Shown here piece after piece: positions 671 to 24,800 of a DNA stretch of 59,463 nucleotides. Position numbers and translations under genes: made by a program. Origin of the DNA: Escherichia phage Skure. The notes below the pieces were generated by a model, which searched no databases, had not been told where the DNA came from, and saw only the letters and a program-made list of their open reading frames with translations. The stretch lies in sequence record MK672798.1, one strand, 5' to 3'. Every line of letters starts with the position of its first letter. Position 1 is the stretch's first letter.

Positions 671-2207
671 TAACATGCCGCGAGTCGTCTGGAAACCACA
701 TCCAGGTTCACAGACACTCGCTCTATCCTGCCCCGCTGATATTATCCTATACCACGGAACTCGCGGTCCTGGAAAAACGGACTGCCAGCTTATGCGTTTC
801 CGTAAGAACGTTGGCGTAGGGTACGGTAAATTTTGGAAGGGTATTATATTCGACCGTGAATATAAAAACCTTGATGACCTTGTAACTAAATCCCAGCGTT
901 GGTTTCCTGAATTTAAAGACGGGGCTAAATTCCTTAGCTCTAAGTCTGATTATAAATGGGTTTGGCCTACAGGTGAAGAGCTACTGTTCCGCGTTGCTTG
1001 TAAAGAAAAGGATTACTGGTCTTATCACGGTCACGAATACCCATTTATCGGATGGAACGAATTAACAAAATATCCGGACGGGCGCTTGTTTGAAGCTATG
1101 ATGTCCTGTAACCGTTCATCTTTCTTACCAGAAGATAACCCAATTATTAATCCAGATGGTACGGTCACATATTTACCGGATATCCCTCTTGAAGTGTTTG
1201 CTACCAGTAACCCGTTCGGTGCGGGGCATAACTGGGTTAAGAAACGCTTCATTGACGCTGCACCGATGGGTAAAATACTCAGGAAGACTACGCGAGTGTT
1301 TAACCCGAGGACGCAGAAAGACGAAGATGTGGTTACGACGCAATGCCATATCTTTGGTTCGTACCGTGAAAACAAAAACCTAAGTCCAAAATATATTGCA
1401 GAACTTATGTCTATCACAGACCCGAACAAGCGTGCTGCATGGTTGGGCGGGAGCTGGGATATTACATCCGGTGGTATGTTCGATGATCTGTGGCGTAGCA
1501 CTGTTCACAAAGTACGTCCATTTCCGATTCCAGCGAGTTGGAAGATTACACGTTCTTTCGACTGGGGTTCTTCAAAACCGTTCTCTGTCGGTTGGTGGGC
1601 TATTAGTGATGGTTCGGATGTTGTGCATGAAGATGGCACTACATTCTCCACGGTCCGCGGTGACCTGTTTAGGATTAACGAATGGTATGGGACCAACGGT
1701 AAAACAAACGAAGGTCTACATTTGCTGGACTCAGAAATTGCAAGCGGTATACTGGAGCGGGAATTGGCCTGGGGTATACACGATCGTGTAGTTCCTGGTC
1801 CTGCGGATAACTCCATTTGGGATCTGGAGAACAATAACTCCACCGCTGCAACAATGGCGAAGAAAATTCGTCTTAACGGGAAGTTATACGACGGTATACA
1901 TTGGAAGCGCAGTGATAAGTCTGCTGGGTCACGTAAACGGGGCTGGCAGAAAATGCGTGAGTTCCTTAAAGCTGCACTGCGGCAAGATGCGAACGGTAAA
2001 CCTTTGCCCGGTCCGCGCGAGAATCCAGCAATGTACATTTTTGATAACTGCAACTATTTCTTTGAGCTGGTTCCAAGTCTGCCTCGCGATGAAGTGGATC
2101 AGGACGACGTTGATACGGAATGTGAAGACCATATGGGTGATGAAGTTCGTTATATGGTTCTGGATCAAGCTGTTTATACAGGTGTTGGCAAAACTATCGG
2201 TATTTAA
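648..2207 (+). CDS. terminase large subunit
   Basis: 519 aa; Walker A-like HGTRGPGKTD near N-terminus; first gene of morphogenesis operon; AAGAG RBS-like sequence upstream. Confidence 0.8.
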   Translation: MELNRQPDNMPRVVWKPHPGSQTLALSCPADIILYHGTRGPGKTDCQLMRFRKNVGVGYGKFWKGIIFDREYKNLDDLVTKSQRWFPEFKDGAKFLSSKSDYKWVWPTGEELLFRVACKEKDYWSYHGHEYPFIGWNELTKYPDGRLFEAMMSCNRSSFLPEDNPIINPDGTVTYLPDIPLEVFATSNPFGAGHNWVKKRFIDAAPMGKILRKTTRVFNPRTQKDEDVVTTQCHIFGSYRENKNLSPKYIAELMSITDPNKRAAWLGGSWDITSGGMFDDLWRSTVHKVRPFPIPASWKITRSFDWGSSKPFSVGWWAISDGSDVVHEDGTTFSTVRGDLFRINEWYGTNGKTNEGLHLLDSEIASGILERELAWGIHDRVVPGPADNSIWDLENNNSTAATMAKKIRLNGKLYDGIHWKRSDKSAGSRKRGWQKMREFLKAALRQDANGKPLPGPRENPAMYIFDNCNYFFELVPSLPRDEVDQDDVDTECEDHMGDEVRYMVLDQAVYTGVGKTIGI

Positions 2208-2218
2208 CTGGAGGGTAT

Positions 2219-3715
2219 ATGGGTATTGATGCAACTCACCCGCTATATGACAAGTGGAAGGACGCATGGGTTAAGTGCAACGACTGCTATGAGGGTGAAG
2301 ATAAAATTAAGGAAGAAGGTGTTAAATATCTACCACCTTTAGCTTCCATGATTATTGATGGGATGAATAATCCTAATGATTTGGGCTTTCAACGTTGGCT
2401 CGCTTATCGTCTGCGTGCCAACTTCCCTGACGATTATTCAAGTGCGGTTACAAACAATTTAGGTCTGCTGCACCAGAAGCCCCCTACAATCCAGCTTCCA
2501 CCTGAAATGGAATACATGCGGGAGCTGTGTACTGCGGACGGTGAAGACATTATTGCTCTGCTACGTCGCATCAATGAAATGCAGTTAAAAAATGGGCGTT
2601 TGGGGCTGCTGCTGGACTTGCCTAAAGGTGAGGATGTAAATAACAGACCTTATATTAGTGTTTATGATGCTTTATCCATTATCAACTGGGATGATGGTAA
2701 AGATGAATTGGGTAATATCAACTTGAACATGGTTGTTCTGGATGAAAGCGGCCCTGTACGTGTCAATCAGTTTGACTGGAAAGAAGAGAAGCGTTATCGC
2801 GTTCTACAATTAGGTCCAATGGACACAGATGAAGTTGCAGGTGGGGCGGTCTACTCCCAACATCTGTTTATTAACAATACCAATTATGATGAAGGGCAAA
2901 TGATTGCTCCTTATTATAAAGGTAATACGCTGGATGAAATTCCTTTCCAGTTTGTCAATACAACAGATATTACCCCAGCACCGGAAGCGCCGCCATTGTT
3001 GGGTCTTGCTAACATTTGTCTAAGCATGTACCGAAGTGACGCGGATTACCGCCAATGCTTGCATATGCAGGGTCAGGATACTTTAGTTGTTGTTGGTGGT
3101 TCCATGGAAAATGGAGATAAAGCCCCTCAGCGTATTGGTCCTGGTGCAGTCATTAACGTTTCTCAGGGAGGTGACGCTAAATATGTAGGTGTTAGCGGTG
3201 ACGGTTTGTCCGAGCAACGTCTCGCACTGGCAGCGGATAAGCAGGAAGCCCAAATTAAAGCCGGGCAAATGGTAAACAATACCAAGAGTACGCAGGAATC
3301 AGGCGAAGCTATGAAAACGCGTATTGCTGCGCGTACAGCTAGTTTGATTCGAATTGCGTATACTGGTGCGGCTGGTTTGGAGAACTTGCTGAAGGTTTGC
3401 GCTAAGTGGATGGGTGCTGATCCCGAGAAAGTTGTGGTCAAGCCTAATCTTGAATTTACCAAGAGCATGTTTAACGGTCAGGACTTTGTTCAAATTATTA
3501 CTGCACGCAACCTTAAGGCTCCGATTAGCTTGCAGTCTATTCATGGCTGGCTTGTTGATCAGGGCTTAACCACACTAAGCTTTGAAGAAGAAATGGCAAT
3601 TCTTGAAGAAGAGCTTAAGAAGTGGCCTCTGCCCGATGATGCTAAAGCTGATTTAAACGCAGAGCAGCAAGTAAGCAAAGATCCTAAGGAAGACGACGCT
3701 TCCGATAAAGAATAG
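2219..3715 (+). CDS. portal protein
   Basis: 498 aa ORF directly after terminase; GGAGGG RBS; acidic C-terminus. Confidence 0.7.
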   Translation: MGIDATHPLYDKWKDAWVKCNDCYEGEDKIKEEGVKYLPPLASMIIDGMNNPNDLGFQRWLAYRLRANFPDDYSSAVTNNLGLLHQKPPTIQLPPEMEYMRELCTADGEDIIALLRRINEMQLKNGRLGLLLDLPKGEDVNNRPYISVYDALSIINWDDGKDELGNINLNMVVLDESGPVRVNQFDWKEEKRYRVLQLGPMDTDEVAGGAVYSQHLFINNTNYDEGQMIAPYYKGNTLDEIPFQFVNTTDITPAPEAPPLLGLANICLSMYRSDADYRQCLHMQGQDTLVVVGGSMENGDKAPQRIGPGAVINVSQGGDAKYVGVSGDGLSEQRLALAADKQEAQIKAGQMVNNTKSTQESGEAMKTRIAARTASLIRIAYTGAAGLENLLKVCAKWMGADPEKVVVKPNLEFTKSMFNGQDFVQIITARNLKAPISLQSIHGWLVDQGLTTLSFEEEMAILEEELKKWPLPDDAKADLNAEQQVSKDPKEDDASDKE

Positions 3716-3810
3716 TTGCAACTTCCAAGTTGATTGGTTTATATTAACGAACACGGGGCTGGGACGGCTCAGCTCCAAAAACGTCACACGGGTGACAACG
3801 GAGATAAGAA

Positions 3811-4683
3811 ATGAAAAAGAGTTCTGTAGCTATTAGTGTTGGTATGGCTTTAATTAATCCACGCGCTCGCGGTGAAGGTGATGTGGAACTGGAATACGAA
3901 TATGCATCTGCGGAAGAGATCCCGGCAGAGTTTGCAACTCTTTACGCAGAGCAGGGCGGTAAATACGTTCTTGCAAAAGTTAAAGGTGTAGCCCCTGCTG
4001 ATAGCGTTCGTCGTCTGGAAAGTGCATTGGCAAAAGAACGTAACGACCATCGTCAGGTGAAGCAACAGATTAGCGCACTTGGGCGTCCGGTTGAAGAAGT
4101 CCTTGCGGACCTTGATCGTATCCCACAACTGGAAGCTGCCGCTAACGGTAAAGGTACTCCGGAAGACATCGAAAAGATGGTTAAAGCTCGTCTTGCTCCG
4201 CTCGAGCGTCAATTGCAAACTGTAGCAGCTGAACGCGATTCCGTTAAGCAGGAAATTGAAGGCTACCGCACTCGCGAAACTAAAGCGAAAATTAAAGACG
4301 CAGTTATTGCCGCTGCATCCGGTGCTAAGCTGCGTCCGTCTGCTATCGAAGATGCGGTGACTTATGCACAGTTGCAAATGACCGTCGACGAGAACGGCAA
4401 TGTGGTTACGAAAGATGGGGCGGGTGTAACTCCATACCTAACCCCAGCGGATTGGCTTAACGAGATCCTCCCGAAACGTCCTCACTGGGTTGAGGGTTCT
4501 GCTGGTGGCGGTGCATCTGGTCCGGGCGCTGGCGGTCATCACGGTGAAGACCCATACAGTCACGACGGTTGGAACATCTCTAAGCAGATGAATCTCTGGA
4601 AAACTAATCAATCTTTAGCTAAACGCTTAGCTGAAAAGAATGGCGTAGATCCGCTGAAGCCTGTACGTCCTGCTAAGAAATAA
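3811..4683 (+). CDS. capsid scaffolding protein (putative)
   Basis: 290 aa, charged helical protein between portal and major capsid gene; GGAG RBS. Confidence 0.5.
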   Translation: MKKSSVAISVGMALINPRARGEGDVELEYEYASAEEIPAEFATLYAEQGGKYVLAKVKGVAPADSVRRLESALAKERNDHRQVKQQISALGRPVEEVLADLDRIPQLEAAANGKGTPEDIEKMVKARLAPLERQLQTVAAERDSVKQEIEGYRTRETKAKIKDAVIAAASGAKLRPSAIEDAVTYAQLQMTVDENGNVVTKDGAGVTPYLTPADWLNEILPKRPHWVEGSAGGGASGPGAGGHHGEDPYSHDGWNISKQMNLWKTNQSLAKRLAEKNGVDPLKPVRPAKK

Positions 4684-4697
4684 GTTGACATCCCGAC

Positions 4698-4730
4698 GTC
4701 CCTGATGTTAAGTTTCAACACATCAGGGAC
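4698..4730 (+). promoter_or_regulatory. perfect 11-bp stem-loop between scaffold and major capsid genes
   Basis: GTCCCTGATGT-(11 nt loop)-ACATCAGGGAC; no following U-tract; overlaps a TTGACA hexamer at 4685-4690. Confidence 0.45.
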
Positions 4731-4805
4731 ACGGGTTCCTAAACAGCCTTCCACGGGGAAAGGCTACCAACAGTAAACAAATCAATCCTTTTCCTGGAGA
4801 CAAGT

Positions 4806-14863: not shown

Positions 14864-15272
14864 ATTGCCGGGCTGGCAGACACGTTTGTTAACCACAGTA
14901 AAGGAGTTGTCATCGACTCCTTTTTCTTGGGGCGAGAATGATTGCTGCACATTTGCGGCAAGATGTGTTGATGCTCAATATGGTACTAATATCTATGATC
15001 AAATCGCTGGAAAATATAATACAGAACTAGGAAGTAAAAAATTCACTTTGCAAAGAGTTGGAACCTCTTATCTTCCTTTACTTCTGGATACATACCTGAG
15101 CGAGCGGGTTGAAGCAAACTTTGCGCAAAGAGGCGATGTGGTTACATTTGAGGGAGCATTGGGCTTAACTGCTGGCATATTATGGACTGGATATGTATGG
15201 GCTATGGGTCCGAACGGTGTGGAAACATTCCCGCTTAATAAGATCAAAATTACGGATATTTGGAGGGTCTAA
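14838..15272 (+). CDS. tail assembly protein, NlpC/P60-like (lambda gpK-like)
   Basis: Start moved to ATG 14838 (GGGGGAG RBS upstream) instead of 14700; GENDCCTFAARC motif consistent with NlpC/P60 catalytic Cys. Confidence 0.5.
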   Translation: MRQVSHMSKLPGWQTRLLTTVKELSSTPFSWGENDCCTFAARCVDAQYGTNIYDQIAGKYNTELGSKKFTLQRVGTSYLPLLLDTYLSERVEANFAQRGDVVTFEGALGLTAGILWTGYVWAMGPNGVETFPLNKIKITDIWRV

Positions 15273-18200
15273 TGCCACCAGCAATAATTGGAGCAGCGAT
15301 AGCTTTAGGTGCGTCGGCTGCTGCCGCGGCTAGTATTATTTCAGCAACTACCGCTCTCGTTATTGGTATTGCTGCAACTGCGGCAGGTGCTCTTTTAACT
15401 AAGACACCAAATATGAACTTTGATGCTTACAAGGGGCAGCAAGAGCGTAAACAGGTTCTGCGTGCGGCTACAGCCTCACGTTCTGTTGTATATGGCACGA
15501 CCGTAGCGTCCGGACTATTAGCATTTGCGGAGGAAGAAGCTGGAGATCAAGATGAAGGTGAATGGATGCATCTTGTTGTTGTTCTTGCTAGTCATAAATT
15601 GGAAGGTATTGAAACGATTTGGTTGGGTGATGACGGAATTGATTGGTTTGGTGAAAACGCTACTTGGGAGTTTCATAACGACCGTCAGACTGTTGACCCA
15701 TTCATGTTAAGACATTGTCCTTCCTGGAAGGAGGATATGATTGGCAAGGGTATTGCATGGCTACGTTTAAGCTTAAAGTTTGATGCTGAAAAATTCCCAT
15801 CCGGTTTGCCAAACGTCAAGGTGTTGAAAAAGGGACGTAGAGTCTATGACCCACGTTCCGGTCAAACTGTGTTTAGCGATAACGCTGCTCTTGTTATTCT
15901 TGATTATTTCCGCACGTATTTAAAGCGCAAGGACGAGAATATTAACTGGGACCAATTCAAGGAAGCTGCTAACATCTGCGACGAGTTTGTAACTAATGCG
16001 GATAACACTACGGAAAGACGCTACCGCATTAACGGTGAGTTTGAAGTGGACGAAGCACCTGCCAAGATCCTTGATGCTATGCTTGAAGCTTGCGGTGGGG
16101 AACTAACCTATATTGGCGGTAAGCATGGTCTGTTAGTTGGTGCTTATTACGGCCCAGCCACCATGACTTTGGATGAAAGCTGCATTGCTGGGGATATCAA
16201 AATAATCCCTGAGACGTCTTATAAAGAGCGTACCAATACCATTACAGGTACATTCGTCGACCCGAAGCAAACATACGCTGAAGCAGATTTCCCTCCAGTT
16301 GTGGTTAAGGAATGGGTGGAAAAAGATGGCGGTGAAATAACGCAAGACATGGATTTCCGCTTTGTTACAAGTGAATATCAAGCTCAACGTCTTGCTAATA
16401 TTATTTTACGTCGTAAGCGTGTTGGTCGAACAATTGAAGTTCCGTGTAACATGAAGGGGTATAAATTCCGCCCAGGCATGTATGTCAACGTAACCATTTC
16501 AAATATCGGAATGAAAAACGTTGAGATGCGCGTTACTAAATGGTCATTCGATCCTAAAGGTGGGATTAATCTTGTTCTTCGTCAAGACTTCCTGGAAATG
16601 TGGGACGACGCTATTGGTAAACCAATGGAGCGCCCGGATCTGGTAGACCTTCCGTCTGGTGCTATTGCTCAGCCTCAAAACCTTCAGTATCAGGTATTGC
16701 AGATTAGCGATGTTGTGCAAGGTGTTTTAACGTGGAGCAATATTGGACAGGTAGCATATAACCGCGTAGCCGTGCGACAGGGAGGTACAACGGTTTGGAC
16801 CGCACAAGTCCCTGGCCAAAACGTTCGCGTTACTGGGCTGCTGCGTGGCGCGTATACAGCGCATGTTCAAGCGGTAGCTTATAGCGGGGCAATATCGCCG
16901 GAAGCATATCTGCAATTCAATATTCAAGCACCACCTCCGCCAACTTCTGTTGAAGTGCAACAGGGTTACTTTGCTATAAGTTTGATCCCAAAATCTGCGG
17001 ATATTGCAAACGTTAGCACGCAGTATGATTTCTGGACTTCCGGTGAAACAAGATTGTCTTCCGTGTCTACAGACATTGTAGAACGCGAAGCAACTCGTAA
17101 AGGTATGGGTGCAACTTGGACGTCGGAAGGGTTGAAGAATGACCACACTTATTACTGGTATGTCCGCACCATTAACGCTTTCGGATCATCTGCATTTGTA
17201 GAAGTAGCTGCATTGTGCTTTACAACAGCTACAGATTTGATGCCACAAATTGATTCTGAATTCAAGAAGACGGAGACTTACAAAGAGCTCACTTCAGAAA
17301 TCAAAGGCGTTAAAGACGGGATTACATCTGTCAATGAAAGCCTTGTAGACGCAGAAAAGAGACTCAGCCAGAGTATTAACAGTGTTCAGGAGACTGTGAA
17401 TGGTGTTAGTGCAACTGTGCAGGAAACAAGTAAAGCGGTAGTAACGCTCGAAGGTAAAGTTAACGCTCAATGGGGCGCTAAAATACAAGTTGACAGTAAA
17501 GGGCAAAAATACGTTGCTGGTATCCAGTTAGGTATGGAGGGCTCCGGTGGTGCTGTTCAATCTTACTTCATGGTGAGTGCAAACAACTTTGCTGTTTATA
17601 ACCCGACAAACAGCGTAGCAGAACTGGCATTTGCTGTTAAGAACGGTCAAGTGTTCATGAAGGCTGCGTTTATTGAAAACGGTACGATTGACAGTGCTAA
17701 GATTTCACAGCAAATTCAGTCAACCAATTATGCAGCTGGATCTGCTGGTTGGATGATAAATAAGAACGGTAATGCGGAATTAAATAACGTAACGATAAGA
17801 GGTACTGTATACGCTAGCAACGGGTCTTTTACTGGTACAGTCAACGCTACAAGCGGTAAATTCAAGGGTACTGTGGAAGCCACCAGTTTTGTGGGTGATG
17901 TTGCGAATATGTGTGTCATTGCTGAGTCTGCAATACCAAACACACAAACTACAAGTTCAAGAACCTGGACAAAAACTTTCAAAGACTCATCTGGTTCAAC
18001 ATTATCTAAAGACTTTGTGTTGCTATTAAGTTATAGTTTAACCGCATATACATCAAAACAGGCAAGTCGTATAATTGTGACTGCTAACATAGGGGGGACA
18101 TCAATGACAAGGAGGATTGAGCGAGCTGCTAATGGTCCTGCCATGGATGTAACCATACCTTTAGCAGTGAAAGGAAAGACAGCGTCGAGCGTGACAATAA

Positions 18201-18289
18201 GCGTTACGGAGGAATATACGAATGTCTATGGGAGTTACTTGCGCCCGTCTGTAATATTGATGACTCGCGGAACTGGTAGTTGGTCGTAA
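15260..18289 (+). CDS. tail tip / host specificity protein (lambda gpJ-like) with gpI-like hydrophobic N-terminal region
   Basis: 1009 aa; C-terminal two thirds resemble lambda J (fibronectin-like region DFWTSGETRL...YYWYVRTINAFGSSAFVE and ...KYVAGIQLGMEGS...FMVSANNFAVYNP); N-terminus Gly/Ala-rich as in lambda gpI C-terminus. Confidence 0.8.
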   Translation: MEGLMPPAIIGAAIALGASAAAAASIISATTALVIGIAATAAGALLTKTPNMNFDAYKGQQERKQVLRAATASRSVVYGTTVASGLLAFAEEEAGDQDEGEWMHLVVVLASHKLEGIETIWLGDDGIDWFGENATWEFHNDRQTVDPFMLRHCPSWKEDMIGKGIAWLRLSLKFDAEKFPSGLPNVKVLKKGRRVYDPRSGQTVFSDNAALVILDYFRTYLKRKDENINWDQFKEAANICDEFVTNADNTTERRYRINGEFEVDEAPAKILDAMLEACGGELTYIGGKHGLLVGAYYGPATMTLDESCIAGDIKIIPETSYKERTNTITGTFVDPKQTYAEADFPPVVVKEWVEKDGGEITQDMDFRFVTSEYQAQRLANIILRRKRVGRTIEVPCNMKGYKFRPGMYVNVTISNIGMKNVEMRVTKWSFDPKGGINLVLRQDFLEMWDDAIGKPMERPDLVDLPSGAIAQPQNLQYQVLQISDVVQGVLTWSNIGQVAYNRVAVRQGGTTVWTAQVPGQNVRVTGLLRGAYTAHVQAVAYSGAISPEAYLQFNIQAPPPPTSVEVQQGYFAISLIPKSADIANVSTQYDFWTSGETRLSSVSTDIVEREATRKGMGATWTSEGLKNDHTYYWYVRTINAFGSSAFVEVAALCFTTATDLMPQIDSEFKKTETYKELTSEIKGVKDGITSVNESLVDAEKRLSQSINSVQETVNGVSATVQETSKAVVTLEGKVNAQWGAKIQVDSKGQKYVAGIQLGMEGSGGAVQSYFMVSANNFAVYNPTNSVAELAFAVKNGQVFMKAAFIENGTIDSAKISQQIQSTNYAAGSAGWMINKNGNAELNNVTIRGTVYASNGSFTGTVNATSGKFKGTVEATSFVGDVANMCVIAESAIPNTQTTSSRTWTKTFKDSSGSTLSKDFVLLLSYSLTAYTSKQASRIIVTANIGGTSMTRRIERAANGPAMDVTIPLAVKGKTASSVTISVTEEYTNVYGSYLRPSVILMTRGTGSWS

Positions 18290-18296
18290 TAAATAA

Positions 18297-18326
18297 TTAA
18301 CCCCTCGTTTGAGGGGTTAATTTTCA
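18297..18326. terminator. bidirectional intrinsic terminator between convergent tail tip and lipoprotein genes
   Basis: TTAACCCCTC-gttt-GAGGGGTTAA flanked by T-rich sequence on both strands. Confidence 0.65.
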
Positions 18327-18557
18327 ATAATCAATCACACAGTTTGAAGGTGAACCAATTCGTCGGTATTCATGATCAATCTCATGGCACCATTGCCCAG
18401 TCATTGGAAGCTTTTCGGTATCATAAATTAAAGAACCGTTACCATCACGGTCTAACGGTTTTGGGATAACGCCGGAATTAGGTTTACCAGTATTCAGACC
18501 GTTACCACATGCAGTGAGGGATAAAGTTAATGCCAGCATAATTAAAGCGCGTTTCAT
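18324..18557 (-). CDS. small lipoprotein, putative receptor-blocking superinfection exclusion protein (Cor/Llp-like)
   Basis: 77 aa; signal peptide MKRALIMLALTLSLTAC with lipobox; AAGGAG RBS; opposite strand between tail tip and tail fibre genes. Confidence 0.5.
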   Translation of the reverse strand: MKRALIMLALTLSLTACGNGLNTGKPNSGVIPKPLDRDGNGSLIYDTEKLPMTGQWCHEIDHEYRRIGSPSNCVIDY

Positions 18558-18627
18558 CAGGACTCCTTTGTGTTGTTGTGAATGTTCAATTCTAATATAC
18601 TTGTTGTGTTGAGTAAGTCAAATTAAT

Positions 18628-19254
18628 GTGGGAGATATTATGGCGACTCGTTTATACGGCGTTTTATTGGATGGTTTGAATAAACCTATTATCAACGCCA
18701 CAGTAGCACTTATTTCGAAAGGAAATACTCTTACCGTATTAAACGGAAGCGAGGCAATATTCCGTACAGACGCACAAGGTGCGTATAACGTAACAGTTCA
18801 GACTGGTCGTTATAAAGTTATTATTGGACCGCAAGGTATTGAGCCATATAAAGCTGGTGAGATTGTTATTTATTCAGATAGTAAAGAAGGTTCACTAAAT
18901 AACTATCTTACTAACTGGGTCCCGGAGGAATTAACTCCGGAAGTAATTGCACAAGTAAAAGAACTTGTGGCTAATTCTGAAGCCTATGCACTCCAAGCAG
19001 GTCGATCTGCGGCTTCTGCACAAGCGGACGCTACCGATGCGCGTAACAGCAAGGCAGCTTCTGCAACGTCTGCGGCGGAAGCATTGACTTATAAAAATGA
19101 CTCAAAGGCAAACGCAGATGCAGCTAAACAAGCCCAAGCTGGAGCGGCGGGATCTGCTAACACTGCAACACAAGCTGTAACCACAGTTACTCAGCTTAAA
19201 GCTGATGTTGCTCAGTTAAAACAGATACTCAAGCAATTAAAGACTCCGCGTTGA
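18628..19254 (+). CDS. tail fibre protein, N-terminal segment
   Basis: 208 aa; Ala-rich coiled-coil C-terminal part shares composition with the start of the next ORF, which overlaps in the -1 frame. Confidence 0.55.
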   Translation: MGDIMATRLYGVLLDGLNKPIINATVALISKGNTLTVLNGSEAIFRTDAQGAYNVTVQTGRYKVIIGPQGIEPYKAGEIVIYSDSKEGSLNNYLTNWVPEELTPEVIAQVKELVANSEAYALQAGRSAASAQADATDARNSKAASATSAAEALTYKNDSKANADAAKQAQAGAAGSANTATQAVTTVTQLKADVAQLKQILKQLKTPR

Positions 19255-20612
19255 CTGAAGTCGCAACAGCTAAAGCCGACGCAGTCAAAGAAGTTAATAC
19301 AGCTAAAACATCGGGTGTTGCTGCGGTCAACACCGCTAAGACGGAAGCAATTAATGCAATAACCCCGCTAAAAGACGCTGCCGCAGCTTCTGCAACTCAA
19401 GCGGGTGCTAGTGCAACCGAAGCGGTGAAACAAGCTACAGCAGCCGCAGGCAGCGCTGCAACCGCAGGGCAGAAAGCTACCCTAGCAACAGAGGAAGCTA
19501 ACCGCGCGAAAGGGTATGCGGATTCAATGGACCCCTCCAGCATAGCTAAACTTGATGCTGAAAATACTTTTACCAAAAAGCAGAAGTTTAACCTTAATGC
19601 AGAATTTGGGGCAAACGCTGGTAATCCTCTTTTAATCAAGAGTGTTAACCCAACAATTAAATTTGAAGAAGTTGACGCCACAGGTGATGTAACTGGCTAT
19701 GTTATGGTCATGGAGGGCGGTAACATACAACTCCAGGAGAACGATACTGGTAGCACTAATGTTGTCTTTAACTACAGCGCTTCAGCTAAAACAGTCAGGC
19801 TACCATCTCACAAGACTGGTTCATTTGGGGAAGTTGGTCAGCTCAGGACAACTGGGAGTTATAGTCAAGACAGCATATTAATTAGAGCGACGGGAGCGGG
19901 TTCGGCTTACACAGCTTATACCGGATCTTCCAGTCCATCTATTGTAAGATGGCGATCAGGGCTTGCTACCAGCGGGGGCTATGCATTCTACAACTACAAT
20001 GAGGATGGCACGTATCATTCTACTCCGGTAGCCATTGGGGGTGCGGGTACTGGGATTGCAATTGCGTTCTCTACCAATATTACCGGGCGAATTACAGCAG
20101 GTGGCGGGGACGCAGGAACCGACGCTGCAACGTTTAGATCCAATGGTTCAGCGTCTTATGTTTGTAACTTAGCATCAAATGGAGTTATTCGAACCCGTGT
20201 GGGATTTAGCGACACTGTAGGGAGCTATGGATTTCAAACATATACCACAGCAGGTTCGCCTGAGTATTGGATTAGACTTCCGAGTGCTGGCGGAACCCTT
20301 GCACTGCAAGGAACATCGGGCTTAGCATATAAAAAGGCGATCAATGACGGTAATCCTATTGATGCTTTAAACCGCATCATGGCACAACGCATGGTCACTT
20401 TTATTTATAAGGACGATAAACAAGAAAGAATAAGATTTGGTATTATTGCAGAAGAATCGGAGAAAGTCACACCACAATATGTGAAGCACAATGAAGAGAT
20501 TTATGAGGATGTATACGAGGATGTTATACGAGGATGTACCTGTAGAGGTTACTGTAGATCATACCGACCCCGAAACTGGTATTACAGAACAAATCAAAGA
20601 ACAACGCATTGA
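19251..20612 (+). CDS. tail fibre protein (central/distal segment), TTG start in ORF track
   Basis: 453 aa; Ala-rich N-terminus, Gly/Ser/Thr-rich body; its C-terminus begins an intramolecular-chaperone-like region (GIIAEESEKVTPQYV); frame 0 is open from 19206. Confidence 0.6.
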   Translation: MTEVATAKADAVKEVNTAKTSGVAAVNTAKTEAINAITPLKDAAAASATQAGASATEAVKQATAAAGSAATAGQKATLATEEANRAKGYADSMDPSSIAKLDAENTFTKKQKFNLNAEFGANAGNPLLIKSVNPTIKFEEVDATGDVTGYVMVMEGGNIQLQENDTGSTNVVFNYSASAKTVRLPSHKTGSFGEVGQLRTTGSYSQDSILIRATGAGSAYTAYTGSSSPSIVRWRSGLATSGGYAFYNYNEDGTYHSTPVAIGGAGTGIAIAFSTNITGRITAGGGDAGTDAATFRSNGSASYVCNLASNGVIRTRVGFSDTVGSYGFQTYTTAGSPEYWIRLPSAGGTLALQGTSGLAYKKAINDGNPIDALNRIMAQRMVTFIYKDDKQERIRFGIIAEESEKVTPQYVKHNEEIYEDVYEDVIRGCTCRGYCRSYRPRNWYYRTNQRTTH

Positions 20613-20805
20613 ACAGAAATTTATTCGTCGTGAAGTCGAGAAGAAAATTGTTTCACAGAAGACCCGAGACAGACCTTCAATTGATACTAACCCTATTGTT
20701 ATGGACTTGATGGGCGCCACTCAAGCGCTCAAAGCAGAAATTGATAGTTTGAAAGCGGAGATAGCTGCGTTGAAGGGCAATGTGGTTAATAACAATCTGC
20801 CATAA
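20491..20805 (+). CDS. C-terminal intramolecular chaperone-like segment of the tail fibre, in +1 frame relative to 19251-20612
   Basis: Ends ...ALKAEIDSLKAEIAALKG, resembling the tail-fibre intramolecular chaperone C-terminus; frame joins the upstream ORF if one T is removed from the tandem repeat at 20505-20540. Confidence 0.45.
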   Translation: MKRFMRMYTRMLYEDVPVEVTVDHTDPETGITEQIKEQRIEQKFIRREVEKKIVSQKTRDRPSIDTNPIVMDLMGATQALKAEIDSLKAEIAALKGNVVNNNLP

Positions 20806-20816
20806 CCACAATAATT

Positions 20817-20845
20817 AAGGAGCCAAACGGCTCCTTTTTTTTTTT
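20817..20845 (+). terminator. rho-independent terminator after tail fibre genes
   Basis: AAGGAGCC-aaac-GGCTCCTT followed by ten T. Confidence 0.75.
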
Positions 20846-21066
20846 AGTTGTCACTTTCTCACCTACCTGCGACCGCACCGCGTTTAAACATAACTCCCTC
20901 CTTTTGTTCAAGTCGTGACGTCCATTGCATTATAAGGGTACCAATGCCAGGCTATTTACAATTTATTTACACGCATATCATGGTAAATAATATGTTAACG
21001 AGTATACTTACCAGCGTAACCCGTTGGTTACATCCGCTTAACAAATCCATATATGGAGATTTTCCT

Positions 21067-21774
21067 ATGTCTGACATGACTCTTTTACCTACTAATCTCG
21101 GTGGCGACGGTTTCGGTGGTGAAGCTGGTGCGGCTGGTATCGGTGGCGCGATCGGTGGCTTAATTGGTTCCTGGATCGGTAATGGTTGGGGTGGCAATGG
21201 TGGTTGGGGTGGTCGCGGTAACTTCGCTGGTCCGGTAGAAGTGCAAGCTTCTGTTGACACCAACGCAATTCTGCAAGCTATCAACAACGGTACTCTTCAG
21301 ACCATTCAGGGGTAGAACGGTACTAACCTGACTGTTGAGCGCTCCGCTGCTTCTACCTATAACGGTATTACTCAGCAGAACACTCAAAACCTGCTGGCTT
21401 CCGTTCAGGGCTTTGCTGGTCTGAACACGCAAATCCAGGGCGGCACCAGCCAAGTGCTCGCGGCTCTGTGTAACAACGAAGCAGCTAACATTACCCGCTC
21501 CTTCCAGGCTCAGTTAGAAGCTCAGAAGTGTTGCTGCGAAACCAACCTGAACATCGAGCGTCAAGCAGAAGCTACTCGTGCTCTCCTGCGCGATCAGCAC
21601 GCACAAGCGCAAGCTGTTCTGATCTGTGACCTGAAGTCCCAGTTGCAGGAAGCTCGCTTTGCAAACTCTCAGTTGGCGCAGACGGCTGGCCTTACCTGTA
21701 AAATCAATCAGGTTGAGCAGTTAGTTAACTTTAAACTGCCAACTCCTCCAACTCCTCCGACTGGCTGCTGCTAA
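21067..21774 (+). CDS. Gly-rich N-terminus / Cys-containing C-terminus protein interrupted by in-frame TAG at 21313-21315
   Basis: ATG 21067 with GGAG RBS; same frame open on both sides of the TAG; coding-like composition continues 46 codons to the annotated downstream ORF 21454-21774. Confidence 0.4.
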
Positions 21775-21845
21775 TCGTTGAAGTGCGGTTAAACTAAAGC
21801 GCCTTTCGCTCCTCCGCTTGGGGCGCTTTTAACAGAGGTAATATC

Positions 21846-22214
21846 ATGAGCCACATTAAAATTGCAACGATGGGAATGCCACGGGTCAAATTGCCTAAGG
21901 TTGCTTTACCTCGCATTAGCGTAGGTGAGCACCACCATGAACATGAGAAAGAGGAATATAAACATGCTCACTCTTATGCTCGAGATCATGAACATATGGC
22001 AGCTATGTCAAATGTTCTTGACCGGATGGAAGAACCTCCGCATACGTGGGCGGCGTACCACGACAAGCCCGGCGGTATGATGTCCATTGTTGAAATGGAA
22101 TACCGCGAATTAATGGAGTGTAAGAAAGAAGGCGACCGCGCAGGGATCATGAAAGAGTTGACTGATCTTGCCGCAGCTTGTACTTGCGCTCTTCAAAAAA
22201 TGAAAGATATGTAA
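21846..22214 (+). CDS. MazG-like nucleotide pyrophosphohydrolase (putative)
   Basis: 122 aa; EMEYRELMECKKEGDRAGIMKELTDLAA resembles the E-x-x-E...E-x-x-D metal-binding helices of all-alpha NTP pyrophosphatases. Confidence 0.35.
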   Translation: MSHIKIATMGMPRVKLPKVALPRISVGEHHHEHEKEEYKHAHSYARDHEHMAAMSNVLDRMEEPPHTWAAYHDKPGGMMSIVEMEYRELMECKKEGDRAGIMKELTDLAAACTCALQKMKDM

Positions 22215-22229
22215 GAATAGGAAGCCGAC

Positions 22230-22760
22230 ATGCAAAACGTAAACGCAGGAATGGGCGTAACCCAGTTCAACGGGATGAAACCGAAAAACTCCATCAACAT
22301 GGGCGGTGTTGATTGGACGTTACGTCGGGACGCTACCGATTCAACTACCATGTTCCCACACCAGAAGGTGAGCTGGCTTAATGCTGGATGTGAACCTATG
22401 GGTGATGGAAGGGTTCATTACTGTTGGATTATGGGAGTGATACCGCCTACGCCGGGCACTATCGAACGACCCGTGAATGTGATGTATGTCGGCTTCCACC
22501 AGTTCAAGATCACAATTGCTCCAAACTCCATTAGTCAGTCAGATCTTGATCGTATGCATGTTTACGTCAGCGATGGTACAGACTTCGCAGGGGATTTTAT
22601 TAGTAAGTTTCTTGGTATGCAACCAGAGCAGCCTGTAGAAGTACGCGAGCATATTAGCCCGTGGCCACCCATGATTGATCAGGAAGTGCTGCAACCAAAG
22701 ACCGCTCAAACGGTCCCTCAGAAACCGGAGCAGAAGGTGAAACCAAATGACGAAGAATGA
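22230..22760 (+). CDS. hypothetical protein
   Basis: 176 aa ORF with RBS at distal end of late operon. Confidence 0.4.
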   Translation: MQNVNAGMGVTQFNGMKPKNSINMGGVDWTLRRDATDSTTMFPHQKVSWLNAGCEPMGDGRVHYCWIMGVIPPTPGTIERPVNVMYVGFHQFKITIAPNSISQSDLDRMHVYVSDGTDFAGDFISKFLGMQPEQPVEVREHISPWPPMIDQEVLQPKTAQTVPQKPEQKVKPNDEE

Positions 22761-23031
22761 AGGTATTGATAAAGTCGTTGAAGGGCTTTCTATTCGTGCT
22801 CATGTTATAGCAGACGAAGGTCATGATCAACTCACAATTATGAAATCTGCATTCAGCGATTTTAAGTCTCTTGGAAACTTAAGCGGGTTAATGACTGTGG
22901 TGTCGACCGGAAAATTAACCCAGCAGCAAATCAGTCTGGCTCAGCGTATTGCTGTTAAAGTTATTGCGGTACTTGGGATGATTGAAGCTGAAAAGCCTAG
23001 TTCCAAGCAGGATAACGAAAGCGACCTTTAA
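22747..23031 (+). CDS. hypothetical protein
   Basis: 94 aa ORF overlapping previous stop. Confidence 0.35.
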   Translation: MTKNEGIDKVVEGLSIRAHVIADEGHDQLTIMKSAFSDFKSLGNLSGLMTVVSTGKLTQQQISLAQRIAVKVIAVLGMIEAEKPSSKQDNESDL

Positions 23032-23042
23032 GGAGGTCTACT

Positions 23043-23246
23043 ATGTGTGGTAATACTAACCGTTGCTGTCTAGGCAGTCCTGCAACACAAGCAGGTATAC
23101 TTCAGGGGCAATTAGCTCAAGCAGCGTGTAATTGCAAAACTTTTCAACCAGTAGCGCCAACTCCTGTGTTTGTGAATGCTTTTGCACCGCCTGTTTTCAA
23201 TACTTTTGGCGTATACCCATACGGTGCTTTCTTTCGTATATTCTAA
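23043..23246 (+). CDS. hypothetical Cys-containing small protein
   Basis: 67 aa, GGAGG RBS, last + strand gene before bidirectional terminator. Confidence 0.3.
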   Translation: MCGNTNRCCLGSPATQAGILQGQLAQAACNCKTFQPVAPTPVFVNAFAPPVFNTFGVYPYGAFFRIF

Positions 23247-23252
23247 GAAGAG

Positions 23253-23277
23253 AAAAGGGGCAAACGCCCCTTTCTTT
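23253..23277. terminator. bidirectional intrinsic terminator at convergence of + and - strand blocks
   Basis: AAAGGGGC-aaac-GCCCCTTT with T-rich flanks on both strands. Confidence 0.6.
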
Positions 23278-23557
23278 AACGCTTATGAAAAGCTGACAGG
23301 ATTGCAAGTGTTACAGCACCCAATCCAACGACGGTAGCATAAGTGAGTTGGCGTTGAACTTTAACAAAGCCATAATAGGTGCTAGGGATGTCTACAATCC
23401 CAAACGCCATAGCAAAGCTGGTCCCAAGTAGTGCTACAGCAAGGGCGCGTAATAACGCCCTGCTCATTGCTGTAAAACCCTTCTCATTACTATCTCCGGT
23501 CATTATAACAACAATGATTAGAAATAGCGAAACGACAACTAATAGATATTCCATCAT
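23276..23557 (-). CDS. small membrane protein
   Basis: 93 aa with hydrophobic helices. Confidence 0.4.
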   Translation of the reverse strand: MMEYLLVVVSLFLIIVVIMTGDSNEKGFTAMSRALLRALAVALLGTSFAMAFGIVDIPSTYYGFVKVQRQLTYATVVGLGAVTLAILSAFHKR

Positions 23558-24222: not shown

Positions 24223-24516
24223 CTAGCCCCCAAAAGTACCCATATGATCAAGGGTTCTAATGCGCTGCTCCAGCCAACGTGCGTTCTTTTCAAAATGTTT
24301 ATTGGTACGCGCTGCTTTGCACGCATCAATAATACCTAACTCACATCCAAGCTGCGTTTGTCCCATCACGTAAGAATGGGTTAACATGCTGGATACAAGC
24401 TCTTCACATTGTAACTTAATAGGATGGTCTTGGCATAGTTTCTTTGCTGCATCTTTTAAATCCACAGCTTGGACACCAGGCGCTATCAGCAAAGTTACGA
24501 GTAATAAACGTTTCAT
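24223..24516 (-). CDS. secreted/periplasmic small protein
   Basis: 97 aa; N-terminal signal peptide MKRLLLVTLLIAPGVQA; four Cys. Confidence 0.4.
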   Translation of the reverse strand: MKRLLLVTLLIAPGVQAVDLKDAAKKLCQDHPIKLQCEELVSSMLTHSYVMGQTQLGCELGIIDACKAARTNKHFEKNARWLEQRIRTLDHMGTFGG

Positions 24517-24800
24517 TATACTTTCCCTTTACGACATAAGGCTTGAAGTTCCAGAAGCGCATCAATGTCTTCCTGTGGAGTTACACCAACGTGAATTGGA
24601 TATTTATCGCGGCATTCGTTACCGACCTCAACAGTGTGGTTAATGTAGCCGTAAACACATCCACCAATAACAGTGAAGATAAGCGCAACAATCATTGTAA
24701 GGTACTTACCTTGTTTGCGTTCTTCATTTTGTTTATTAAGCTGACGGTTAAGTTCTACCGCGTCGATTTTACCTTTATTGTAATCGTCTACTAAGCTCAT
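24516..24800 (-). CDS. small membrane protein
   Basis: Start moved to internal ATG (MSLVDDYNK) with GAGGAG RBS; one TM helix. Confidence 0.4.
   Translation of the reverse strand: MSLVDDYNKGKIDAVELNRQLNKQNEERKQGKYLTMIVALIFTVIGGCVYGYINHTVEVGNECRDKYPIHVGVTPQEDIDALLELQALCRKGKV

What the first reader, a model, noticed from the sequence alone, without database searches (positions are those of the whole stretch)
19200..19260. Tail fibre gene split into two ORFs by a -1 frame change
ORF 18628-19254 and ORF 19251-20612 overlap by about 48 nt in different frames. Both sides of the junction share the same Ala/Thr/Gln-rich coiled-coil composition, which suggests one ancestral tail fibre protein of about 660 aa. 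No canonical slippery heptamer is present, so this may be a genuine two-gene arrangement, a frameshift mutation or a sequencing error.
Basis: seen in the sequence. Interest (0 to 1): 0.5.

Follow-up and report, generated by a model that had tools for sequence, protein, structure and literature searches.

The report
Broken side tail fibre gene
The side tail fibre gene of this E. coli phage (Skure) has been knocked out by two small deletions that cut it into three out-of-register pieces, an ordinary loss of a dispensable fibre like the classic one in laboratory phage lambda.

Summary
The window is Escherichia phage Skure (Seuratvirus, 59,463 bp). ORF 18640-19254 (204 aa) and ORF 19251-20612 (453 aa) are in different frames (-1). 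Their open frames overlap by 49 nt.

They are fragments of one lateral (side) tail fibre gene. That gene is an uninterrupted 725-aa ORF in the closest relatives (SLUR25/SLUR63 and a Logan contig). It is also continuous across both break points in the T5-like phages Gostya9 and HK6.

Skure has lost one A from an A5 run (19218-19221). It shifts the last 93 codons (20527-20805) into a third piece.

Five of six amino-acid differences from SLUR25 are Skure-specific. Substitutions in this gene are 1 synonymous to 6 non-synonymous, against 580:78 in 18 other genes. The next gene downstream carries an amber codon (21313-21315). No other Skure gene is split.

The second piece has no ribosome-binding site, and there is no frameshift signal.

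Verdict: a genuine, decaying pseudogene of a fibre that is dispensable on the rough K-12 isolation host, the same kind of event as the lambda PaPa stf frameshift. Sequencing error is unlikely but cannot be excluded without reads. Low interest.

The parts
18630..18642 (+). Shine-Dalgarno GGGAG (18630-18634) and the true ATG start (18640) of the lateral tail fibre gene
   Evidence: Read from the sequence. The start agrees with the SLUR25 CDS and with GenBank QBZ71649.1.
18640..19254 (+). Piece 1 (204 aa, QBZ71649.1). It reads the native sequence M1-K194, then 10 out-of-frame residues (QILKQLKTPR) and a TGA stop. It contains the Stf-type N-terminal tail-attachment ('collar') domain.
   Evidence: Pfam PF08400 phage_tail_N covers residues 1-134, E 7e-24. 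Residues 1-91 match the lambda Stf collar domain of PDB 9E7M/9MGH, E 3.8e-14.
19218..19221 (+). Lesion 1: an A4 run where SLUR25, Gostya9 and HK6 all have A5. This 1-nt deletion causes the -1 frame change after K194.
   Evidence: Pairwise and multiple DNA alignments.
19221..20612 (+). Piece 2. GenBank annotates it from TTG 19251 as QBZ71650.1 (453 aa); the frame is open from 19206. It reads the native sequence T195-V628, then 28 out-of-frame residues and a stop at 20610-20612. It holds the Ala-rich shaft, the receptor-binding region and the first ~69 residues of the S74 chaperone domain (candidate S560-x4-K565 dyad at about 20316-20333).
   Evidence: Pfam PF13884 Peptidase_S74, E 1.4e-7. Match to LtfA chain 8hqz_d over residues 542-628. 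No SD-like motif lies within 20 nt upstream of TTG 19251.
20524..20525 (+). Lesion 2: the site of an 11-nt deletion (TTATAAGGATA) relative to SLUR25, Gostya9 and HK6. It lies inside four imperfect 12-nt tandem units that encode YEDV-YEDV-YKDI-YEDV.
20527..20805 (+). Piece 3, unannotated, in the same frame as piece 1. It reads the native sequence Y633-P725 plus a stop. This is the C-terminal two-thirds of the S74 intramolecular chaperone, including the terminal coiled coil.
   Evidence: BLASTP gives 98.9% identity to SLUR25 residues 633-725. Match to 8hqz_d residues 1031-1073.
20817..20845 (+). Intrinsic-terminator-like hairpin followed by a T-run, marking the natural end of the tail fibre transcription unit just after piece 3.
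   Evidence: The scan reports no + strand terminator-like site between the pieces.
21067..21774 (+). The neighbouring conserved gene (phrog_9288, function unknown; 235 aa from M42 of the SLUR25 annotation). In the window an amber codon at 21313-21315 (TAG, where SLUR25 has CAG) interrupts it.
   Evidence: This gene and the tail fibre are the only two genes split in Skure relative to the 89 SLUR25 CDSs.

Best explanation
This is a genuine loss-of-function allele (pseudogene) of the lateral/side tail fibre gene of phage Skure.

Shown:
- The ancestral gene encoded one 725-aa protein: an N-terminal Stf-type collar domain, an Ala-rich shaft, a receptor-binding region and a C-terminal S74 intramolecular chaperone.
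- In the Skure lineage, one A was lost from an A5 run. Translation from the only good ribosome-binding site therefore ends at 19254, giving a 204-aa stub.
- An 11-nt deletion also cut the chaperone domain.

Inferred:
- The A5-to-A4 loss arose by replication slippage.
- Even if piece 2 were translated, it could not fold into a trimeric fibre, because the chaperone is broken.
- The virion carries no distal side fibres. At most it carries the collar stub.
- The phage infects through its J-like central fibre. This costs nothing on the O-antigen-less K-12 MG1655 on which it was enriched.
- After the first hit the locus drifted neutrally. That would account for the Skure-specific amino-acid changes and the second deletion. 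The amber codon in the neighbouring gene may belong to the same decay, but a functional link between the two genes is untested.
For: Identity of the window: it is phage Skure, and the two ORFs are QBZ71649.1 and QBZ71650.1.

Intact orthologues:
- SLUR25/SLUR63 have a 725-aa single CDS at 99% nt identity.
- A Logan contig has a 725-aa protein.
- Gostya9 LtfA and the 885-aa HK6 ORF are continuous and carry both the A5 run and the 11 nt.
- Putting back 1+11 nt restores a 725-aa ORF.

Evidence that the locus is decaying:
- Five of six non-synonymous differences from SLUR25 are Skure-derived when polarised with Gostya9, HK6 and P0004.
- The gene shows 1 synonymous to 6 non-synonymous differences, against 22:5 in the J-like gene (Fisher p = 0.002) and 580:78 in 18 other genes (p = 2e-5).
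- A genome-wide integrity check finds only this gene and its downstream neighbour split.
- All three disabling lesions lie within 2.1 kb.

Sequencing: Illumina NextSeq at x226 coverage.

No signals for separate expression:
- There is no SD before TTG 19251.
- There is no significant downstream RNA structure (z = -1.5, starting 20 nt away).

Dispensability:
- The phage was enriched twice on MG1655 without plaque purification.
- Seuratvirus lateral fibres are proposed to bind O-antigen, and the terminal receptor is read by a separate locus (PMC8594841).
- LTFs of T5-like Gostya9 and DT57C are not needed on rough strains (PMC10743462).

Precedents:
- The lambda PaPa stf frameshift (PMC12617516).
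- In experimental evolution of lambda, 15 of 19 stf mutants carried frameshifts (PMC2762979).
- A second K-12-isolated Seuratvirus, Bas21, has its fibre cut to 193 aa at the same module boundary.
Against: - No reads are available, so the two indels cannot be verified directly.
- The paper lists Skure as 59,474 bp, while the record and window are 59,463 bp. The difference is exactly 11 bp, the size of the second deletion. This could mean that assembly versions differ at this site, or it could be coincidence.
- The lysate was not plaque-purified and also held a second phage, the Dhillonvirus 'jat'. The consensus may therefore hide a mixed population.
- Several lesions within a module that is only about 0.3% diverged from SLUR25 is a lot for neutral drift, though the numbers are small.
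- Absence of side fibres on the virion is inferred, not observed.
Confidence: 0.85

Rival explanations
1. Sequencing or assembly artefact: the real phage has an intact 725-aa gene, and the 1-nt and 11-nt gaps are consensus errors.
For: - One lesion lies in a homopolymer and the other in a short tandem-repeat region.
- The published genome length exceeds the deposited record by exactly 11 bp.
- The paper says both CLC and SPAdes assemblies were constructed.
- The lysate held two phages.
Against: - Sequencing was Illumina NextSeq at x226. From general knowledge, A5 runs are not error-prone on that chemistry.
- The 11-nt gap is out of register with the 12-nt repeat and has only 1 nt of microhomology.
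- No other gene in 59 kb carries an uncompensated indel.
- The same locus also carries an amber substitution and an excess of Skure-specific non-synonymous changes. Indel errors would not produce either.
- The co-resident phage is a 54.5% GC Dhillonvirus, and no Dhillonvirus appeared among the 29 DNA matches to this gene.
Confidence: 0.08
2. Genuine multi-gene arrangement: the pieces are translated separately and assemble into a working fibre (a collar protein, a distal fibre and a free chaperone).
For: - GenBank annotates two separate tail fibre proteins.
- The TTGA stop/start overlap could in principle allow termination-reinitiation.
- Some phages do encode fibres in several genes, for example DT57C LtfA/LtfB (general knowledge).
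Against: - There is no SD before TTG 19251 or before any ATG of piece 3 at a functional spacing.
- Piece 2 would lack the collar domain that attaches Stf-type fibres to the tail.
- The break in the S74 domain falls in the middle of a fold that acts in cis (and general knowledge of S74 chaperones).
- No relative has this arrangement.
- The breaks are plainly derived deletions.
Confidence: 0.03
3. Recoding: a programmed or leaky -1 ribosomal frameshift at UUA_AAA_C (A_AAA tetramer) joins pieces 1 and 2 in a fraction of ribosomes, giving sub-stoichiometric fibres.
For: The A-site Lys codon AAA can re-pair perfectly in the -1 frame. From general knowledge (not checked against a paper here), A_AAA/A_AAG tetramers are reported to give low-level -1 slippage in E. 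coli.
Against: - The P-site UUA would have to re-pair with GUU, which fits poorly.
- There is no upstream SD-like stimulator.
- The downstream fold is not significant and is wrongly spaced.
- Relatives need no frameshift because they have A5.
- A second, +1/-2 event at 20524 would also be needed to restore the chaperone, and no signal for one is apparent there.
Confidence: 0.03

Closest known systems
Lambda PaPa stf frameshift (orf401/orf314 versus Ur-lambda stf; Hendrix & Duda 1992, as cited in PMC12617516)
   Same: - A side tail fibre gene with the same PF08400/Stf-type N-terminal collar domain is split into consecutive ORFs by a small frameshifting indel.
- The fibre speeds adsorption but is not needed for plaque formation on K-12.
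- The broken allele dominates in a laboratory-propagated stock.
- In experimental evolution of lambda, 15 of 19 stf mutants carried frameshifts (PMC2762979).
   Different: - Skure carries two lesions, not one.
- Its distal fibre has an S74 intramolecular chaperone rather than relying on a separate Tfa.
- The presumed ligand is an O-antigen glycan rather than OmpC.
- The defect was found in a fresh wastewater enrichment, not in a decades-old laboratory strain.
T5-family L-shaped tail fibre LtfA/pb1 (Gostya9 LtfA, HK6; PDB 8HQZ chain d)
   Same: - The distal 530 residues of the reconstructed Skure fibre share about 94% nt identity with Gostya9 and HK6 ltfA.
- They carry the same C-terminal S74 chaperone.
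- LTFs of this family bind specific O-polysaccharides and are dispensable on rough hosts.
   Different: - The N-terminal anchor differs: Stf-type collar in Skure, a long Ala/Ser/Glu-rich T5-type N-terminus in Gostya9 and HK6.
- The T5-like genes are intact.
Truncated lateral tail fibre of Seuratvirus GottfriedDienst (Bas21)
   Same: - Same genus, and also isolated on K-12.
- The fibre gene is reduced to a 193-aa N-terminal stub that ends at the same boundary between the conserved anchor and the variable distal part.
- Small remnant ORFs follow.
   Different: Bas21 appears to have lost the distal part by a large deletion or replacement, and it also lacks the phrog_9288 neighbour. Skure keeps all the sequence but out of frame.

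Membership tests
Stf-type side/lateral tail fibre (PF08400 N-terminal collar domain) | N-terminal domain homologous to lambda Stf residues 1-94, the collar that docks on the tail tip | tested here: met
   PF08400 at 84.8 bits against a cut-off of 26.6. phmmer match to 9e7m_Ta residues 1-91, E 3.8e-14.
Stf-type side/lateral tail fibre (PF08400 N-terminal collar domain) | Position in the genome just downstream of the J-like central fibre gene | tested here: met
   The J-like 1009-aa ORF lies at 15260-18289. A lipoprotein gene on the - strand follows, and then the fibre gene.
Stf-type side/lateral tail fibre (PF08400 N-terminal collar domain) | One continuous ORF that joins the collar domain to the distal receptor-binding part | tested here: not met
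   The ORF is interrupted at 19218-19221 and at 20524/5. It is intact in SLUR25, P0004, CAjan and Seurat. The window therefore holds a pseudogene of this family, not a working member.
Peptidase_S74 (intramolecular chaperone) tail fibres/spikes | C-terminal S74 domain contiguous with the fibre, so that it acts in cis | tested here: not met
   PF13884 is detected in piece 2 (32.2 bits against a cut-off of 22). The 11-nt deletion cuts the domain after residue 628, and the remaining 93 residues lie in another frame.
Peptidase_S74 (intramolecular chaperone) tail fibres/spikes | Ser-x4-Lys autoproteolytic dyad at the start of the domain | tested here: inconclusive
   S560-GLAY-K565 aligns with TSGIEYKK of 8hqz_d. 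Its catalytic role is assumed from general knowledge of the family and was not tested.
Programmed -1 ribosomal frameshift site | Slippery heptamer X_XXY_YYZ in the 0 frame | tested here: not met
   The sequence is G_UUA_AAA, so only the A-site tetramer A_AAA can re-pair.
Programmed -1 ribosomal frameshift site | A stimulatory element (downstream hairpin or pseudoknot at 5-9 nt, or an upstream SD-like sequence) | tested here: not met
   The minimum-energy fold of 19222-19300 has z = -1.5 and its stem starts 20 nt downstream. No SD-like motif lies upstream.
Programmed -1 ribosomal frameshift site | Conservation of the two-frame arrangement in relatives | tested here: not met
   All relatives have A5 and a single frame.

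The most novel reading that the evidence does not exclude
The three clustered lesions may be more than drift.

First, they may show that the conserved gene of unknown function next door (phrog_9288, called 'putative sugar-binding protein' in some BASEL records) works together with the lateral fibre and is discarded with it.

Second, Seuratviruses on rough hosts may repeatedly shed the distal fibre while keeping a collar stub of about 190-200 aa because the stub itself is needed for tail-tip stability. Skure keeps 204 aa and Bas21 keeps 193 aa.
Probability: 0.2. Interest if true: 0.35.

Novelty: new member of a known kind. Interest (0 to 1): 0.15.

Why it matters
The main value is for annotation and for phage-host work.

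- The two 'tail fiber protein' entries of Skure (QBZ71649.1, QBZ71650.1) are fragments of a pseudogene. They should not be used as receptor-binding-protein examples, as training data for host prediction, or as parts for engineering.
- The finding predicts that Skure lacks functional side fibres. Its adsorption and host range on O-antigen-bearing strains would then be poorer than those of SLUR25.
- It adds a natural example, next to lambda PaPa, of how enrichment on rough K-12 hosts yields fibre-less variants.
- It is not a new mechanism.

Tried and rejected
- Exact-pattern scans of IMG/VR for the junction with A4 and with A5 both returned nothing. There is therefore no independent copy of either allele in that collection.
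- I looked for a frameshift stimulator by folding the downstream RNA. The fold was not significant.
- I looked for internal promoters or terminators between the pieces. Promoter-like hits were at the level expected from shuffles (6 found, 5.5 expected). On the + strand, the only terminator-like site is the one after piece 3.
- A chimeric assembly with the co-resident phage 'jat' is unlikely. It is a Dhillonvirus, and no Dhillonvirus appeared among the DNA matches to this gene.
- I considered a diversity-generating retroelement as the source of the amino-acid changes and rejected it. The derived changes are not restricted to adenines, and the SLUR25 annotation lists no reverse transcriptase.
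- I considered phase variation at the A-run and rejected it. A4/A5 is short, and the 11-nt deletion is irreversible.
- Pfam gave nothing for the downstream phrog_9288 gene.
- The absence of an HK6 ltfA annotation turned out to be an annotation gap, not a frameshift. An intact 885-aa ORF is present.
- Technical note: loci fetched in parallel calls were not all visible to Python, so SLUR25 had to be re-fetched.

Full report
**Observation.** On the + strand the window has an ORF at 18628(GTG)/18640(ATG)-19254 and an ORF at 19251(TTG)-20612. The second is in the -1 frame relative to the first. The called ORFs overlap by 4 nt (TTGA). The second frame is already open from 19206, so the open frames overlap by 49 nt. 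Both sides are Ala/Thr/Gln-rich. There is no X_XXY_YYZ heptamer.

**Identity of the sequence.** An exact look-up shows that the 204-aa and 453-aa products are QBZ71649.1 ('tail fiber protein') and QBZ71650.1 ('putative tail fiber protein') of Escherichia phage Skure, on a contig of 59,463 bp. The window is thus the whole Skure genome. Skure is a Seuratvirus isolated from Danish wastewater. It went through two overnight enrichments on E. coli K-12 MG1655, and lysates were sequenced without plaque purification. Sequencing was Illumina NextSeq at x226 coverage, and the lysate also held the Dhillonvirus 'jat' (PMC7552041). The paper does not mention the split gene.

**What relatives have.**
- The closest phages, vB_Eco_SLUR25 and SLUR63, match this region at 99% identity and annotate one 2178-nt 'side tail fiber' CDS of 725 aa.
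- The 90% identity protein cluster holds only the two Skure fragments, the SLUR25/63 protein and a further 725-aa protein from a 58.6-kb Logan contig.
- Base-by-base alignment shows two indels inside the gene: one A missing from an A5 run (window A4 at 19218-19221), and 11 nt (TTATAAGGATA) missing at 20524/20525.
- The distal 1.8 kb of the gene is also about 94% identical to ltfA of the T5-like phages Gostya9 and HK6. Both have the A5 run and the 11 nt, and both are continuous ORFs.
- Both gaps are therefore deletions derived in Skure. Putting back the 1+11 nt restores a 725-aa ORF.
- Other Seuratviruses (Seurat 602 aa, CAjan 1027 aa) also have a single fibre gene that starts with the same conserved N-terminus.
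- No homologue in the 5.8-billion-protein search shows the Skure split.

**Anatomy.**
- The only good ribosome-binding site is GGGAG, 5 nt before ATG 18640.
- Piece 1 reads the native sequence M1-K194, then 10 wrong residues and a stop.
- Piece 2 reads T195-V628, then 28 wrong residues and a stop at 20612.
- Piece 3 reads Y633-P725 with a stop at 20805.
- A terminator-like hairpin with a T-run follows at 20817-20845.
- Residues 1-134 match Pfam PF08400 (prophage tail fibre N-terminal). Residues 1-91 match the lambda Stf collar domain solved in 9E7M/9MGH.
- The C-terminus is a Peptidase_S74 intramolecular chaperone that aligns with LtfA chain 8hqz_d on both sides of the second deletion. That deletion therefore bisects the chaperone.
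- There is no SD-like sequence before TTG 19251 or at a functional distance before any ATG of piece 3.
- RNA downstream of the A-run has no significant structure (z = -1.5).

**Mutation or error?** A comparison of the whole window with all 89 SLUR25 CDSs shows that every other alignment gap inside an intact gene is either a paired +1/-1 gap within a few bases or a multiple of 3. Only two genes are split in Skure: the tail fibre (three pieces) and the gene immediately downstream (two pieces).

That neighbour (phrog_9288, function unknown) is 97-100% identical in protein across SLUR25, CAjan, slur01, ECP2304 and CSP1. In Skure it carries TAG at 21313-21315 where SLUR25 has CAG.

Substitutions tell the same story:
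- Between Skure and SLUR25 the fibre gene has 1 synonymous and 6 non-synonymous differences.
- The J-like gene has 22:5, and 18 other genes together have 580:78 (Fisher p = 0.002 and 2e-5).
- Polarised with Gostya9, HK6 and the Logan protein, five of the six amino-acid changes arose in Skure, at positions otherwise invariant.

The locus thus carries three disabling lesions and shows relaxed constraint, all within about 2.1 kb of a genome that is otherwise clean. That pattern fits a real, drifting pseudogene, not consensus errors of a x226 Illumina assembly.

One caveat remains. The paper gives 59,474 bp for Skure and the record has 59,463 bp. The difference is 11 bp, the size of the second deletion. 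I could not find out where that difference lies.

**Mechanism (inferred).** The A5-to-A4 loss is the classic replication-slippage frameshift. The origin of the 11-nt deletion is unclear. It lies in four imperfect 12-nt repeats but out of register with them. Ribosomes starting at 18640 make a 204-aa collar stub. Piece 2 has no start signals, would lack the tail-docking domain, and ends in a broken chaperone. No functional distal fibre is expected.

The phage can do without the fibre. In Seuratvirus the terminal receptor is read by the locus next to the J-like gene. The hypervariable lateral fibres are proposed to bind O-antigen, which K-12 lacks (PMC8594841). LTFs of Gostya9 and DT57C are likewise unnecessary on rough strains (PMC10743462).

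**Comparison with what is known.** The closest known case is lambda. Laboratory lambda (PaPa) differs from Ur-lambda by a frameshift in stf that abolishes the side fibres without affecting titre (PMC12617516). In experimental evolution of lambda, 15 of 19 stf mutants carried frameshifts (PMC2762979). Skure's fibre shares the Stf collar domain, so it is a pseudogenised member of the same fibre family. It differs in having two lesions and an S74 chaperone. A second Seuratvirus isolated on K-12, GottfriedDienst (Bas21), has its fibre reduced to 193 aa at the same module boundary. This suggests that such loss is recurrent.

**Rivals.**
- Sequencing or assembly artefact: about 8%.
- A genuine multi-gene fibre: about 3%.
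- Leaky -1 frameshifting at A_AAA: about 3%. It could at most join pieces 1 and 2 and would not mend the chaperone.

**Verdict.** The finding is real and correctly located, but ordinary. It is a frameshift-inactivated lateral tail fibre gene, in three pieces rather than two, annotated in GenBank as two proteins. It is a new member of a known kind, with low interest (0.15).

Noticed in passing
window 21067-21774 (amber codon at 21313-21315): The conserved gene just downstream of the tail fibre (phrog_9288, function unknown) has an in-frame TAG where SLUR25 has CAG. It is 97-100% identical in protein across SLUR25, CAjan, slur01, ECP2304 and CSP1. It is the only other gene split in Skure.
   Followed up: partly
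whole window (59,463 bp) compared with Table 1 of PMC7552041: The paper lists Skure as 59,474 bp, 11 bp longer than the record. That is the same size as the second deletion in the fibre gene. Where the 11 bp lie is unknown.
   Followed up: no
window 19116-20900; L002 (Gostya9) 3001-4793; L003 (HK6) 3001-4786: The distal fibre module, including the S74 chaperone, is about 94% identical in DNA between this Seuratvirus and T5-like Tequintaviruses. The N-terminal anchors are unrelated. This indicates recent horizontal exchange of the receptor-binding module across families. The junction (about 19116-19190) lies just upstream of the frameshift.
   Followed up: partly
L003 (phage HK6, PP724615.1) 2028-4685: An intact 885-aa ltfA ORF is present but not annotated in the GenBank record.
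   Followed up: yes
L009 (GottfriedDienst/Bas21) 3639-4800: The lateral tail fibre is truncated to 193 aa at the same anchor/distal boundary. It is followed by 36-aa and 113-aa remnant ORFs, and the phrog_9288 gene is absent. This is an independent case of fibre decay in a K-12-isolated Seuratvirus.
   Followed up: partly
window 20491-20560: There are four imperfect 12-nt tandem units encoding YEDV-YEDV-YKDI-YEDV in the intact relatives. The 11-nt deletion removes all but one base of one unit, out of register with the repeat.
   Followed up: partly
window 15000-23500 compared with the rest of the genome: Identity to SLUR25 is mosaic. By nucleotide alignment it is about 99% in the fibre region (18500-20900) and 95.9% over the whole 29-kb HSP 1-28952. 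Per-gene synonymous differences are few in the J-like, fibre and mazG-like genes but many in the tape-measure gene and its neighbours. Identity falls to 83-91% or is lost around 29-33 kb and 51-54 kb. The fibre gene (0.3% diverged) is more similar than its downstream neighbour (15 synonymous differences in 708 nt).
   Followed up: partly
window 20835-20845 and 24242: The T-run of the terminator after the fibre gene is one T longer than in SLUR25. A 1-nt insertion relative to SLUR25 near the 3' end of a small - strand gene (24226-24528) changes only its last few residues.
   Followed up: no
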